This document shows, piece after piece, positions 46,101 to 49,100 of a DNA stretch of 64,000 nucleotides; position 1 is the stretch's first letter, and every line of letters begins with the position of its first letter. This DNA comes from Escherichia coli. GTDB lineage: Bacteria > Pseudomonadota > Gammaproteobacteria > Enterobacterales > Enterobacteriaceae. The stretch lies in NCBI RefSeq assembly GCF_024298765.1, contig NZ_CP101210.1; one strand, 5' to 3'. Made by a program: the position numbers.

Positions 46101-49100
46101 AAACTGAGATTTGCAATCAGAAAAAATTATTCAAGAGAACATCTCTAATTTATTGGTAGCGTCCATGAACGATGATTTCCTCACAACCAAAAAGTAAAGA
46201 AAATCTTATGATAAGATATATTTGTAAATTAGTATTATTAACGTCAAAGATCTTTTCTTTTCTGCACCCTTACTTTGCAACGCATAAAAAACAAATAAAA
46301 TCAATAATATATGCAGAAAAAGTTATTTTACGTAAAAATAACATTAAATAAATCAAGACTATTGAACATCACTAAAACATTAGACGTAATACACATTCAC
46401 CCCCGCTCCTTGACTCAGGGTTTTAATATTTTTTGTTTCACATCATTGTAGAAAAAATCGCGCATTAAAAATGAGTTGTAGAAAAACCGCACAATAAATA
46501 TTTCATATTTAATCTATTGCGTAGAACTACTATTCAAAAAATCTTATTAATGAGATAATGAAATTACATCGATAACGTTCTGATTGCAGGCACACTTATC
46601 TGGGTGTGCCTCTTTTTTTTACAACTGTACACGGTGGCGTATGACGAGAAAATATCTCACACAGGATGAAGTCTACAGGCTGATGGATGCAGCCCAGAGC
46701 ATGTCCTTTCCTGAAAGAAATCGCTGTCTAATTATGATGGCTTTCATTCACGGTTTTAGGGCCAGTGAACTTCTTGATTTACGTTTATCCGATATTGATG
46801 CATCAGGAAAACAACTTAATATCCGGCGTATTAAAAATGGCTTCTCGACAACACATCCTCTTCTTCCTGATGAATATAATTTGATCAAGTTGTGGCTTAA
46901 GCAGAGGAAGTTAATTGAAAATGGAGTTGAAGGAGACTGGCTTTTTCTCTCCCGGAAACGCCGCCCTATCAGCAGACAACATTTTTTTTCGATCATTCGT
47001 GAGGCAGGAAGACGTGCAGGATTAGCTGTAAAAGCACATCCTCATATGTTACGTCATGCCTGTGGATTTGCTCTGGCTGACAATGGTGTCGATACCCGAC
47101 TACTTCAGGATTATCTGGGTCATCGAAATATTCAGCATACTGTCAGATACACAGCCAGTAATGCTGCTCGATTTAAAGGGGTGTGGAAAAAAAAGCCTCG
47201 TTAAAACAGTACCTTCTGAATCAAAATGTCAGGTTTTGTAGCAATGGCGTGGACGAGTCTGAATGAAGAAGCCTCTGGTTATTATCAGTGCCTGTCAGTT
47301 CACCAGGCTGGCACTGGAGTCTCTCATCCCAACGGACAGGTATATCGTGCGGGTGTACAGCAACGTCACTACAGAGGTTGAATTCGTTTTAAAGACCTCC
47401 TGTGGCTACCTGTTAGCTGATATCCCATCGCTTCCTTCGGGAGAGTTGGTTCTTCTGGCTTGTCTTGTCCGCTTGCGGAGTGATGCCGGGCAATGGCAGG
47501 TCTGCCTGACCGGTGACTCCGACTGGTTCGATAATGCTCCTGCTGCAAGTCTGTATAACGGCTTCCCACGCATCGGCACCATGCTGACAGCGAGTCGTTA
47601 TCAGAATCAAATTATCCGCTGGTTACTACGTCCTTTGCCCGGCGATATGAGCGATTTCTGGCTCCTGACTGCACGGGAGTTGAGCGTGCTTAAGATTCTG
47701 ATGCAGGGCATGAGTTTCAGTGAGATTGCCCGTTATGAACAACGCAGTTCAAAGACCCTGCATGCGATTGCCACACGGGCTTTAATGAAACTTGGACTGG
47801 GAACACTGAGCGATTTCAGGCTGCTCTATACGGGATGCGGTGACAGCAGAGTGAAACGGAATATACGGCTACATGCAAAATATATCGGACAACATTCCGC
47901 TCATCGACTCACTCAGTATGTGCAGAACATGGTATCCGGAATTCTTTATCCAGAGAAAGTTGCCGTTGGTGAATCAATAAATTCTGACGCCATATCCGGA
48001 AAAGTACTTTCCGGACAAAGAAAAAATATGTCTAAAAAAAGACCAGGATTGTTATGACACAGCAGCGTTGTTACTACCCCCCACTGCGGCGCATACGGAC
48101 TCGCTACAGTGTAGGAGCCAAAATATTTCTACTGCTCTGGGCTGCAGGATTGGGAGGCACGCTGTACAGCCTGTACAGCGTGCTGGCGTACTGACATCTG
48201 TGAGGGAAGGATGCGTTTCGTTCTTTTCTGTCCCTCAGGAATTGTACCAGCGCAGTTCGCAGCTCTATCAACCGGTTCTGTCGGCAATGTTACCTGCATC
48301 AGAACAGAAGAGGAGTTACGCAATAAATTGCGGCACAGGCCACAGAATGTCGTGATATCGGCAGGGCGACCTGCCGAATGCGCTGAAATGTGGTTCCGAT
48401 TTTATCGGGATCACTCATTCGTGGTGGTGTTGTGCGTCGCACCCTTTTTTCTGCCACCAGATGTGAGTATTTCTGGCGTTCTCAAAAACCTGAGGTTACT
48501 GAAACCAGGAATGTCAGTAGAGCGTGTCATCAGTATTGCAAATGCCTCTGGTGGGTTTTCAGGGCTGAAACATGCAGAAATTTTGCCAGTTATGGACAGT
48601 TACTCTGTCTTTATGAAAGAGGTGAATAACCGCACAAAGACAATCGTCATGTCAGAACGCTTCCCGGAAAAGCAAAAGAAGGTGTTGTCGTTGCTTCTTG
48701 CCGGACACAGCTGGGAATACAGTGCGCAGTTTCTCAAAACGGGGATAAGACAGATATGGCTTGCCGAGCAGTCGCTAAAAAAGCGTTGGGGAATACCGGA
48801 CAGCATGTCATTGCGGGAAGCCCTGCTGCTGAGCAGCAATAATTTTCACGGTGATGGAAATGCATTGGAAACAACGAATGCCATGACATTGCGTGAAAAC
48901 GGAAATACCAACAGGTATTCCGTGGTGGTAAATGCAGGGACGCAGGCTTTATCTCTGCATAAATATAAATAAGTGGGAAATTGAAATTAGTTACCAGAAT
49001 GGAGAATTTCTTCATGAAAAACAGTAAGGCATTTTACCGCAGCGCATTAGCAACAGCTATTGTTATGGCTCTTTCTGCACCAGCATTCGCTGCTGATAAC

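What the first reader, a model, noticed from the sequence alone, without database searches (positions are those of the whole stretch)
48157..48183. Perfect 27-bp palindrome between the two LuxR-type genes
gcacgctgtacagcctgtacagcgtgc is perfectly self-complementary around a central C (13-1-13), which is very unlikely by chance in a short spacer. It sits 28 bp upstream of the second LuxR gene and upstream of the autotransporter. This is the geometry expected for a dimeric HTH regulator operator (perhaps one of the adjacent LuxR proteins) or a strong RNA hairpin acting as an attenuator between the two genes. The core CTGTACA also occurs immediately before the recombinase start (46625..46631).
Basis: seen in the sequence. 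Interest (0 to 1): 0.5.

Follow-up and report, generated by a model that had tools for sequence, protein, structure and literature searches.

The report
Palindrome inside a hidden small gene
The perfect 27-base palindrome is real, but it does not lie in an empty spacer: it is a twice-repeated 9-base coding unit near the end of a conserved, mostly unannotated 46-codon membrane-protein gene between hyxR and hyxA, and it more likely acts as an mRNA hairpin than as a regulator's docking site.

Summary
The palindrome GCACGCTGTACAG-C-CTGTACAGCGTGC is at 48157-48183 as described, and no shuffled window produced 13-base arms. [quoted passage not shown]

The hyxR-hyxA "spacer" is not empty. It holds a 46-codon ORF (48054-48194) whose ATG overlaps the hyxR stop codon (ATGA). 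This ORF is conserved next to hyxA homologues in diverged Escherichia-type loci and in the Salmonella T1-antigen locus. dN/dS is 0.1-0.4, and each copy has a ribosome-binding site, a basic N-terminus and a hydrophobic C-terminus.

The palindrome encodes G-T-L-Y-S-L-Y-S-V-L. It is an in-frame tandem repeat (CTGTACAGC)x2 whose unit is self-complementary. Copy number is 1, 2 or 3 among complete E. coli genomes.

The peptide alone forces about 7-8.5 of 12 pairs. Diverged hyxR-type relatives still pair more than synonymous shuffles predict, with two compensatory pairs and a G·U bias on the sense strand. There is no U-tract, promoter, second half-site copy or Rfam match.

Best reading: coding repeat plus a cis-acting mRNA hairpin. 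The main rival is a pure coding and slippage by-product. An operator is possible but least supported. Interest is modest.

The parts
48157..48183 (+). Perfect 13-1-13 palindrome; as sense-strand RNA it forms a 12-13 bp stem with a 3-nt loop
   Evidence: -22.9 kcal/mol, z = -3.8
48162..48179 (+). In-frame tandem repeat (CTGTACAGC)x2, units at 48162-48170 and 48171-48179, encoding Leu-Tyr-Ser twice; copy number is 1-3 among E. coli genomes
48054..48194 (+). Conserved 46-codon small ORF (MTQQRCYYPPLRRIRTRYSVGAKIFLLLWAAGLGGTLYSLYSVLAY). Its ATG overlaps the hyxR stop (ATGA). Basic N-terminus (+6) and a hydrophobic 23-residue C-terminus. Annotated by PGAP as 'hypothetical protein' in only some genomes
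48045..48048 (+). AGGA Shine-Dalgarno-like motif 5 nt before the small-ORF ATG; equivalents are present in all relatives
48202..48210 (+). hyxA Shine-Dalgarno sequence (GAGGGAAGG), 7 nt after the small-ORF stop codon and 18 nt after the hairpin
   Evidence: read from sequence
47263..48057 (+). hyxR, LuxR/GerE-type regulator
48211..48972 (+). hyxA; predicted receiver-like domain plus LuxR/FixJ-type HTH fold
49014..51305 (+). hyxB/upaB autotransporter, last gene of the hyxRAB operon
46641..47204 (+). ipbA (fimX/hbiF) tyrosine invertase of the island

Best explanation
The palindrome is protein-coding sequence that also folds as an mRNA stem-loop.

Shown:
- It lies in a 46-codon ORF (48054-48194) whose start overlaps the hyxR stop (ATGA). 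The ORF ends 16 nt before hyxA.
- The ORF is conserved next to hyxA homologues in diverged Escherichia-type loci and in the Salmonella T1-antigen locus, under purifying selection. It encodes a small protein with a basic N-terminus and one hydrophobic C-terminal segment.
- The 27-mer encodes G-T-L-Y-S-L-Y-S-V-L. It is an in-frame 9-bp tandem repeat (CTGTACAGC)x2 of a self-complementary unit, flanked by complementary Gly-Thr and Val-Leu codons.
- The repeat slips by whole units: copy number is 1, 2 or 3 in natural strains.

Inferred:
- In the hyxRAB transcript the sequence folds into a stem of about -21 to -23 kcal/mol, 8 nt before the small-ORF stop and 18 nt before the hyxA ribosome-binding site. 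Selection maintains this stem in the hyxR-containing relatives.
- Because the stem is inside a translated ORF coupled to hyxR, ribosomes coming from hyxR melt it. It reforms when that translation is low.
- My committed mechanism is that it acts in cis on the hyxR / small-ORF / hyxA junction. It would be a barrier that sets the relative stability of the upstream and downstream mRNA segments, and/or it would modulate termination-reinitiation into hyxA. It is not a protein operator.
For: Small ORF is real:
- The same ORF (44-48 codons) sits immediately upstream of hyxA homologues of 36-54% identity in L010, L011/L026, L012/L028, L015, L018, L029-L032, and a shorter 34-codon form in L016.
- dN/dS is 0.10-0.39, with dS of 0.6-2.4 or beyond what the method can estimate.
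- An SD-like motif precedes every start.
- GC is 0.56-0.57, against 0.34-0.43 for the true spacers.
- PGAP and other gene callers call it in some records.
- Database homologues occur only in Escherichia and Salmonella, and all are named 'hypothetical'.

Repeat nature: n=2 in about 1857 of 1880 E. coli records, n=3 in about 14, and n=1 in at least one genome, MS20657. LYSLYSLYS protein variants occur on three different sequence backgrounds.

Hairpin:
- Energies are -22.9 (n=2), -13.6 (n=1) and -27.2 kcal/mol (n=3).
- The same register still pairs in L017 (11/12), L010 (10/12), L011 (11/12, including 3 G·U) and L012 (10/12).
- With the peptide fixed and codons shuffled, the fixed-register energy has P = 0.004 (L010), 0.014 (L011) and 0.06 (L012). 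My Fisher combination of these gives about 3e-4, or about 0.01 if pair counts are used instead.
- Two pairs show double-sided C-G to U-A changes, both at synonymous or tolerated codon positions. 91.7% of cells are paired, and the covariation score was reached in 5 of 500 shuffles.
- Non-Watson-Crick cells are 7 G·U against 2 A·C on the sense strand. That is the pattern expected for sense RNA, not for duplex DNA.
- The hyxRAB genes are described and co-regulated as one operon (PMC12922286; PMC11294581).
Against: - The peptide itself forces most of the symmetry: the null mean is 7.1-8.5 of 12 pairs.
- Slippage-driven homogenisation of the two units, which my null does not model, would add more.
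- Only five independent hyxR-type lineages are available, so the covariation evidence is thin. L012 alone is not significant.
- The hairpin is not kept in the Salmonella-type loci or in L016, although the small ORF is.
- There are no transcript-end, processing, Ribo-seq or reporter data.
- I found nothing in the searchable literature on this element. The primary hyxR paper (Bateman & Seed 2012) could not be read.
- The specific cis effect (stability versus reinitiation) is inference from geometry only.
Confidence: 0.45

Rival explanations
1. Pure by-product. The palindrome is only the coding sequence of the small protein's L-Y-S-L-Y-S motif. The unit CTGTACAG happens to be self-complementary. 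Repeat slippage (contraction and re-expansion) keeps the two units identical. Template-switch 'quasipalindrome correction', a known mutational process in E. coli (own knowledge), perfected the flanks. The hairpin forms but has no selected role.
For: - The peptide alone gives 7-8.5 of 12 pairs.
- By my hand calculation from the codon frequencies used, the n=1 form is a perfect 18-bp palindrome with about 0.4% probability given the peptide. Duplication then extends it at no extra cost.
- Copy number is visibly unstable, n=1-3.
- The Salmonella-type loci and L016 keep the protein but not the stem.
- The C-terminal peptide is itself conserved, so invariance within E. coli needs no extra constraint.
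Against: - Diverged lineages with largely saturated synonymous sites still pair better than synonymous shuffles (P = 0.004, 0.014, 0.06).
- There are compensatory C-G to U-A changes at two pairs, and a 7:2 G·U over A·C bias on the sense strand.
- All three copy-number variants and the T36M lineage keep a stable stem.
Confidence: 0.35
2. Operator. A dimer of HyxR or HyxA, both LuxR/FixJ-type HTH proteins, binds the dyad to autoregulate or to control hyxA-hyxB.
For: - Perfect dyad symmetry lies next to two genes with LuxR-type HTH folds.
- The n=1 form is an 18-bp palindrome, a typical size for such dimers (own knowledge).
- Watson-Crick symmetry in L010 and L011 also exceeds synonymous shuffles (P about 0.02).
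- The palindrome is absent from the Salmonella loci, which lack hyxR.
Against: - No sigma-70-like promoter in the interval.
- The interval is GC-rich coding sequence, not an AT-rich control region.
- No second copy of the half-site within 2 mismatches in the island, and only three weak 2-mismatch matches in the whole 64 kb.
- CTG/CAG spacing is N11 or N2, not the N10 of lux or LexA boxes (read from sequence).
- Natural n=1 and n=3 alleles shift the half-sites by 9 bp.
- Divergence in relatives is of the G·U type, which keeps RNA pairing but breaks DNA symmetry.
Confidence: 0.12
3. Intrinsic terminator or attenuator that stops transcription between hyxR and hyxA.
For: A strong GC-rich stem lies within an operon. 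A similar U-less 13-bp stem follows hyxB.
Against: No U-tract follows it on either strand. It lies inside a translated ORF, so ribosomes would unwind it. hyxRAB genes are reported as co-regulated.
Confidence: 0.04
4. Recombination site for the neighbouring IpbA/FimX invertase, or a scar of another mobile event.
For: It has the 10-7-10 look of a tyrosine-recombinase core site and lies 950 bp from an invertase gene. One strain (M70) has an IS inserted 10 bp upstream.
Against: - No resemblance to the hyxS repeats (TCAAAATGTCAG).
- No partner site.
- No inverted or deleted arrangement at this point in about 1880 genomes, apart from in-frame 9-bp slippage.
- A published genome-wide screen for Fim-type inversions in UPEC exists (10.1101/494401). 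I saw only its listing and did not read it, so I cannot say what it found at this position.
Confidence: 0.02

Closest known systems
Stem-loops inside operons that set segmental mRNA stability or translational coupling (for example papBA processing, the malE-malF REP hairpin, puf operon hairpins; own knowledge)
   Same: A stable, U-less, GC-rich hairpin inside a polycistronic regulator-plus-adhesin transcript, close to a cistron boundary. It is partly maintained by compensatory and G·U changes.
   Different: It lies inside a translated small ORF, not in an untranslated gap. It is single-copy, not REP. No processing or stability data exist.
LuxR/NarL/RcsB-family operators (lux box, RcsB box, NarL 7-2-7)
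   Same: Dyad symmetry, contains CTG...CAG, and lies beside genes for LuxR-type HTH proteins.
   Different: 27 bp with an odd centre and N11 spacing. No promoter nearby, coding context, a single copy, and spacing that varies by 9 bp among strains. Binding is untested.
In-frame coding tandem repeats that change length by slipped-strand mispairing
   Same: A 9-bp unit (3 codons) with natural alleles of 1, 2 and 3 copies on several backgrounds.
   Different: The change is in-frame, so it does not switch the gene on or off. It adds or removes Leu-Tyr-Ser in a membrane segment. Variant alleles are rare (about 1%).
STM0717 region of the Salmonella T1-antigen locus (PMC11294581)
   Same: A homologous small ORF (48 codons, ...RYSTGAKIFLLLLAVSTVAALSGLYQVLTY) lies directly upstream of the HyxA homologue STM0718 and downstream of a FimB-like invertase and its switch.
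   Different: There is no hyxR and no palindrome or hairpin in that register. The ORF abuts the hyxA homologue (TGAtATG). The locus drives polysaccharide genes, not an autotransporter. Mapping to the tag STM0717 is my inference from gene order.
Quasipalindrome template-switch mutation hotspots in E. coli (own knowledge)
   Same: Imperfect inverted repeats in relatives and a perfect one in E. coli, as that process would produce.
   Different: No direct evidence of such an event here. It explains the perfection, not any function.

Membership tests
LuxR-type (lux-box-like) operator | Dyad-symmetric site of about 18-20 bp with CTG-N10-CAG geometry | tested here: not met
   The site is 27 bp with an odd centre. 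CTG(6-8) to CAG(20-22) is N11, and the inner pairs are N2 (read). Only the rare n=1 allele is 18 bp.
LuxR-type (lux-box-like) operator | Located in or next to a promoter that it controls | tested here: not met
   No sigma-70-like hexamer pair anywhere in 48058-48210. The interval is coding and has 0.57 GC. A consensus scan cannot exclude weak or alternative-sigma promoters.
LuxR-type (lux-box-like) operator | Specific binding by the cognate regulator | not testable with these tools
   Needs EMSA, footprinting or ChIP with HyxR and HyxA.
Intrinsic (Rho-independent) terminator or attenuator | GC-rich stem-loop | tested here: met
   12-13 bp stem, -20.6 to -22.9 kcal/mol.
Intrinsic (Rho-independent) terminator or attenuator | U-tract immediately 3' of the stem | tested here: not met
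   The stem is followed by UGGCGUACUGAC on the + strand and CUCCCAAUCC on the - strand. The terminator scan did not report it.
Protein-coding small ORF (small membrane protein) | ORF conserved in position, length and sequence across diverged relatives, with dN/dS below 1 | tested here: met
   Nine sequences in alignment A5: eight of 44-48 codons plus a shorter 34-codon form in L016. All lie directly upstream of a hyxA homologue. dN/dS is 0.10-0.39.
Protein-coding small ORF (small membrane protein) | Start codon with a ribosome-binding site | tested here: met
   AGGA, GGAGG, GGGGG or GAGGAG lies 5-9 nt upstream in the eight loci examined (L016 not examined). In E. coli the start overlaps the hyxR stop as ATGA.
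Protein-coding small ORF (small membrane protein) | Demonstrated translation or a detected protein | not testable with these tools
   No Ribo-seq or proteomic data were accessible. Database names are only 'hypothetical protein'.
In-frame coding tandem repeat | Unit length a multiple of 3, with copy-number polymorphism between strains | tested here: met
   9-bp unit. n=1 in MS20657, n=2 in the majority, n=3 in O157:H7 493/89 and about 13 others.
Conserved RNA secondary structure | Base pairs maintained by compensatory substitutions across relatives | tested here: inconclusive
   2 of 12 pairs have double-sided changes (3 cells). 91.7% of cells are paired. The covariation score is 0.254 against 0.196 in shuffles (reached in 5 of 500). 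Only 7 sequences from about 5 lineages were available. No Rfam family matches.
REP/BIME-type repeated extragenic palindrome | Many copies per genome, in extragenic positions | tested here: not met
   One place per genome (median 1) in 1879 genomes. It is intragenic.
Fim-type invertase recombination site | Similarity to fimS, hyxS or ipuS half-sites, and an inverted partner site | tested here: not met
   The hyxS repeats are TCAAAATGTCAG-type. There is no partner copy and no inversion at this point in the genomes sampled.

The most novel reading that the evidence does not exclude
The small ORF and its embedded hairpin form one regulatory device downstream of the phase switch. The 46-residue membrane protein would be a partner or signal input for HyxA, an orphan FixJ/RcsB-like regulator with no kinase. 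That would explain why the small ORF-hyxA pair is the conserved core shared by E. coli PAI-X and the Salmonella T1-antigen locus. The hairpin, melted only when ribosomes arrive from hyxR, would tie hyxA/upaB output to hyxR translation. Slippage of the 9-bp unit would tune both hairpin strength (-13.6, -22.9 or -27.2 kcal/mol) and the length of the membrane segment.
Probability: 0.15. Interest if true: 0.6.

Novelty: new member of a known kind. Interest (0 to 1): 0.35.

Why it matters
PAI-X (fimX-hyxRAB) is a marker island of uropathogenic and other extraintestinal E. coli. It has been linked to nitrosative-stress tolerance, serum resistance, O-antigen chain length and UpaB-mediated adhesion (PMC3789825, PMC12922286).

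The papers I could read describe the island as four genes. This analysis indicates a fifth, conserved small membrane-protein gene wedged between hyxR and hyxA and shared with the Salmonella T1-antigen switch locus. The conspicuous palindrome is part of that gene.

Consequences for experiments:
- hyxR or hyxA deletions and complementation constructs that cut through this interval may also remove the small protein or the hairpin, which could confound phenotypes assigned to hyxR or hyxA.
- If the hairpin is functional, it adds a post-transcriptional layer below a phase-variable promoter.
- If it is not functional, the case is a useful caution. Perfect palindromes can arise from in-frame repeats of self-complementary codon strings, and 'intergenic' operators should first be checked for hidden ORFs.

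Tried and rejected
- Rfam scan of 46000-49500 at E<=1 found nothing.
- The promoter and terminator scan found no promoter in the interval, and the palindrome was not called as a terminator.
- A half-site search with up to 2 mismatches found only three weak matches elsewhere in the 64 kb and none in the island.
- CTGTACA before ipbA is at chance level.
- LexA-box and lux-box readings were rejected on spacing.
- A Fim-type recombination site was rejected: no similarity to the hyxS repeats and no partner site.
- Folding the whole 191-nt interval gave no overall structure signal (z = -0.95). Only the local hairpin stands out.
- The first protein search for HyxA relatives returned almost only E. 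coli. L009, which looked diverged, is just a decayed copy of the same E. coli-type locus with the palindrome intact.
- The genome-contig scan with the 8-sequence alignment failed. With 5 sequences it returned only 2 loci.
- The metagenome scan added only 14 loci and no new hyxR-type lineage.
- L013 and L014 carry a HyxA homologue with an AT-rich upstream region and no recognisable small ORF.
- hhalign of the HyxA profile against HyxR was not significant. A PDB sequence search with the HyxA profile found nothing. The fold search was needed to place HyxA.
- The primary papers on hyxR, PAI-X and upaB (PMC3809820, PMC3749053, PMC3255655) are not held. I cannot say whether they mention this element.
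Full report
**1. What is there**

The sequence at 48157-48183 is gcacgctgtacagcctgtacagcgtgc, a perfect 13-1-13 inverted repeat (I9). The 64 kb window holds only two perfect inverted repeats with 13-nt arms. None of 100 composition-preserving shuffles reached 13. The extra CTGTACA at 46625-46631 exists but is at chance level: 4 copies outside the palindrome against 4.55 expected.

**2. Where it is**

The region is 100% identical to E. coli strain 104 and is present in 1914 of 5426 complete E. coli genomes. RefSeq annotation of identical or near-identical records gives this gene order:

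| Gene | Coordinates |
|---|---|
| betA | upstream flank |
| ipbA (= fimX = hbiF, tyrosine invertase) | 46641-47204 |
| hyxR | 47263-48057 |
| hyxA | 48211-48972 |
| hyxB (= upaB autotransporter) | 49014-51305 |

This is pathogenicity island PAI-X (PMC3789825; PMC6083910).

HyxR has a GerE/LuxR HTH. HyxA has no Pfam or NCBIfam hit. Its AlphaFold model (pLDDT 78) is a receiver-like domain plus a four-helix HTH, and its best structural matches are FixJ, VraR, RcsB, StyR and DesR. 'Between two LuxR-type genes' is therefore acceptable.

**3. The spacer is a gene**

An ORF at 48054-48194 (46 codons) starts with an ATG that overlaps the hyxR stop codon (ATGA). An AGGA motif precedes it. The ORF ends 16 nt before the hyxA ATG. 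PGAP annotates it as a hypothetical protein in some E. coli records, and metagenome gene callers find it too.

The exhaustive HMMER search returned HyxA homologues of 31-54% identity. Their contigs show the same layout:

- L010, L011 and L012 carry a HyxR-like gene, the small ORF, a HyxA-like gene and a downstream ORF in the autotransporter position. L010 also carries the invertase gene.
- A Salmonella T1-antigen-type locus (L015) carries invertase, switch, small ORF, HyxA-like gene and glycosyltransferases.
- A short contig (L016) carries the small ORF and a HyxA-like gene.
- The two collection scans added Escherichia sp. MOD1-EC7003, S. enterica diarizonae and several metagenome copies.

In all of these except L013 and L014, an ORF lies directly upstream of the hyxA homologue. 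It has 44-48 codons, or 34 in L016, and a conserved core: R-Y-S/T-x-G-A-K/R-I-F, then a hydrophobic stretch, then L-Y-x-V/I-L.

- Pairwise dN/dS is 0.10-0.39, with dS of 0.6-2.4 or beyond what the method can estimate.
- Every copy examined has an SD-like motif.
- The interval is the most GC-rich part of the island, 0.57 against 0.34-0.43 for the true spacers.
- The protein has a +6 N-terminal half and an uncharged, hydrophobic 23-residue C-terminal half.
- Homologues in a 5.8-billion-protein database are confined to Escherichia and Salmonella and carry no name beyond 'hypothetical'.
- The T1-antigen paper lists STM0716, STM0717 and STM0718 upstream of the biosynthesis genes and notes only that STM0718 resembles HyxA (PMC11294581). 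From gene order, the small ORF is most likely within STM0717. That mapping is my inference.

**4. Anatomy of the palindrome**

In the ORF frame the 27-mer reads G|GC ACG CTG TAC AGC CTG TAC AGC GTG C|TG, that is G-T-L-Y-S-L-Y-S-V-L. It is GCACG + (CTGTACAGC)x2 + GTGC. The core CTGTACAG is its own reverse complement, so two tandem copies separated by C form a longer palindrome automatically.

The repeat is length-polymorphic:

| Copy number | Occurrence | Hairpin energy |
|---|---|---|
| n=1 | strain MS20657 | -13.6 kcal/mol |
| n=2 | about 1857 of 1880 records | -22.9 kcal/mol |
| n=3 | about 14 records, e.g. O157:H7 493/89 | -27.2 kcal/mol |

In the n=1 allele the sequence is a perfect 18-bp palindrome, GCACGCTGTACAGCGTGC. 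Protein variants with LYSLYSLYS occur on three different backgrounds.

**5. How much symmetry is forced by coding**

I held each peptide fixed and redrew synonymous codons. For the E. coli peptide, 7.1-8.5 of the 12 stem pairs form on average. All 12 are Watson-Crick in about 0.03% of draws under E. coli codon usage, and all 12 pair (G·U allowed) in about 1%. Most of the palindrome is therefore a consequence of the peptide and of common codons (CTG, TAC, AGC, GTG, GGC). The perfect form is unusual but not astronomically so.

**6. Is the pairing selected?**

Within E. coli the 27-mer is almost invariant, but so are the following 27 nt and the encoded C-terminus. This says little. Two exceptions are a T36M lineage (C to T, which keeps a G·U pair) and one low-coverage T36P contig.

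The diverged hyxR-type loci are more informative. In the same register they keep these pair counts:

| Locus | Pairs of 12 |
|---|---|
| L017 | 11 |
| L010 | 10 |
| L011 | 11 (3 are G·U) |
| L012 | 10 |

- Against synonymous shuffles of their own peptides, the fixed-register hairpin energy has P = 0.004 (L010), 0.014 (L011) and 0.06 (L012). My Fisher combination gives about 3e-4, or about 0.01 using pair counts.
- On a seven-sequence alignment, 91.7% of cells pair. Two pairs show C-G to U-A changes on both sides. The covariation score was reached in 5 of 500 shuffles. Slid registers pair far worse.
- Non-Watson-Crick cells are 7 G·U against 2 A·C on the sense strand. This fits sense-strand RNA rather than duplex DNA.
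- Against this, the Salmonella-type loci and L016 keep the protein but not this stem.
- The sample is about five lineages, and my null ignores homogenisation of the two repeat units by slippage.

I rate selection on the RNA stem as plausible but not established.

**7. Tests of the other readings**

- Operator. No sigma-70-like promoter in the interval. No other half-site in the island. CTG...CAG spacing is N11 or N2, not N10. The context is coding. Natural alleles move the half-sites by 9 bp. Binding itself cannot be tested here.
- Terminator or attenuator. No U-tract on either strand.
- Known RNA family. None.
- Recombination site. No resemblance to the hyxS repeats and no partner site.
- REP-type element. 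Single copy per genome.

**8. Mechanism I commit to**

Shown: the palindrome is an in-frame coding repeat of a conserved small-protein gene whose start overlaps the hyxR stop codon (ATGA). As RNA it must form a stem of about -21 to -23 kcal/mol, 8 nt before that ORF's stop and 18 nt before the hyxA Shine-Dalgarno sequence.

Inferred: the stem is used in cis on the hyxRAB mRNA. Ribosomes coming from hyxR open it, and it reforms when they are absent. It would then act as a barrier that sets the relative stability of the upstream and downstream mRNA segments, and/or bias termination-reinitiation into hyxA.

| Reading | Confidence |
|---|---|
| Coding repeat plus functional cis-acting RNA hairpin | about 0.45 |
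| Same anatomy, no function for the stem | about 0.35 |
| Operator | about 0.12 |
| Terminator or attenuator | 0.04 |
| Recombination site | 0.02 |

The coding part alone I put at about 0.9.

**9. Novelty and score**

The island, its switch and its four named genes are known. I found no mention of the palindrome or the small ORF in the papers I could read.

The element belongs to known kinds: a small-ORF-embedded mRNA hairpin and an in-frame coding repeat. I therefore class it as a new member of a known kind, with interest 0.35. The practical value is the evidence for a fifth PAI-X gene shared with the Salmonella T1 switch locus, and a warning for the design of hyxR and hyxA mutants.

Noticed in passing
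window 47205-47262 (compare L002 2306-2634): The window, like strain 104, lacks the hyxS invertible promoter element. 271 bp are missing between ipbA and hyxR, leaving CCTTCTGA|ATCAAAATGTCAGG. The end-points are a direct repeat, TGA(T/A)TCAAAATGTCAG. That repeat exists because the hyxR-proximal inverted repeat in hyxS-positive strains is itself a 19-1-19 palindrome carrying both orientations. The deletion therefore looks like excision between the distal repeat and the directly oriented copy, by the invertase or by homologous slippage. hyxS is found in 1779 genomes against 1914 that carry the locus, so roughly 5-7% may be switch-less. In this strain hyxRAB has lost its known phase-variable promoter.
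   Followed up: partly
window 51344-51372 and 51379-51409: The only other perfect 13-nt-arm palindrome in the 64 kb (CCTGCAGGCAGCA-GTA-TGCTGCCTGCAGG, -26.3 kcal/mol) sits 39 nt after the hyxB stop. It also has no U-tract. A second imperfect hairpin follows it. This is probably the 3' end structure of the hyxRAB transcript. It is also present in L009.
   Followed up: partly
window 46588-46620: A canonical intrinsic terminator (10-bp stem AGGCACAC...GTGTGCCT followed by CT8) lies 21 nt upstream of the ipbA ATG on the same strand. It would insulate the invertase gene from upstream transcription.
   Followed up: no
window 48211-48972 (hyxA): HyxA is 'function unknown' with no family hit. It is predicted to fold as a receiver-like domain plus a LuxR/FixJ-type HTH, with top hits FixJ, VraR and RcsB. 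Across eight homologues its C-terminal third is the conserved part: T-G-[VI]-R-Q-[VI]-W-L-A-E. No kinase gene is nearby.
   Followed up: partly
L004 3150-4270 (E. coli M70): An IS5-family ISEc35 is inserted in the small ORF about 10 bp upstream of the palindrome. The same strain carries the C-to-T (T36M) change in the left arm.
   Followed up: no
L005 (O157:H7 strain 1130), L003 (DETEC-E601): In O157:H7, ipbA and hyxR are pseudogenes and hyxB is truncated, yet hyxA and the small ORF, including the palindrome, stay intact. In DETEC-E601, ipbA has an internal stop.
   Followed up: no
L013/L014 3824-4000: A more distant HyxA homologue (42% identity) lies beside a CaiF/GrlA-family gene. In L014 it is on a contig with a weak Rep3-type replication gene hit. 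Its upstream region is AT-rich with no recognisable small ORF, so the small ORF-hyxA pairing is not universal.
   Followed up: no
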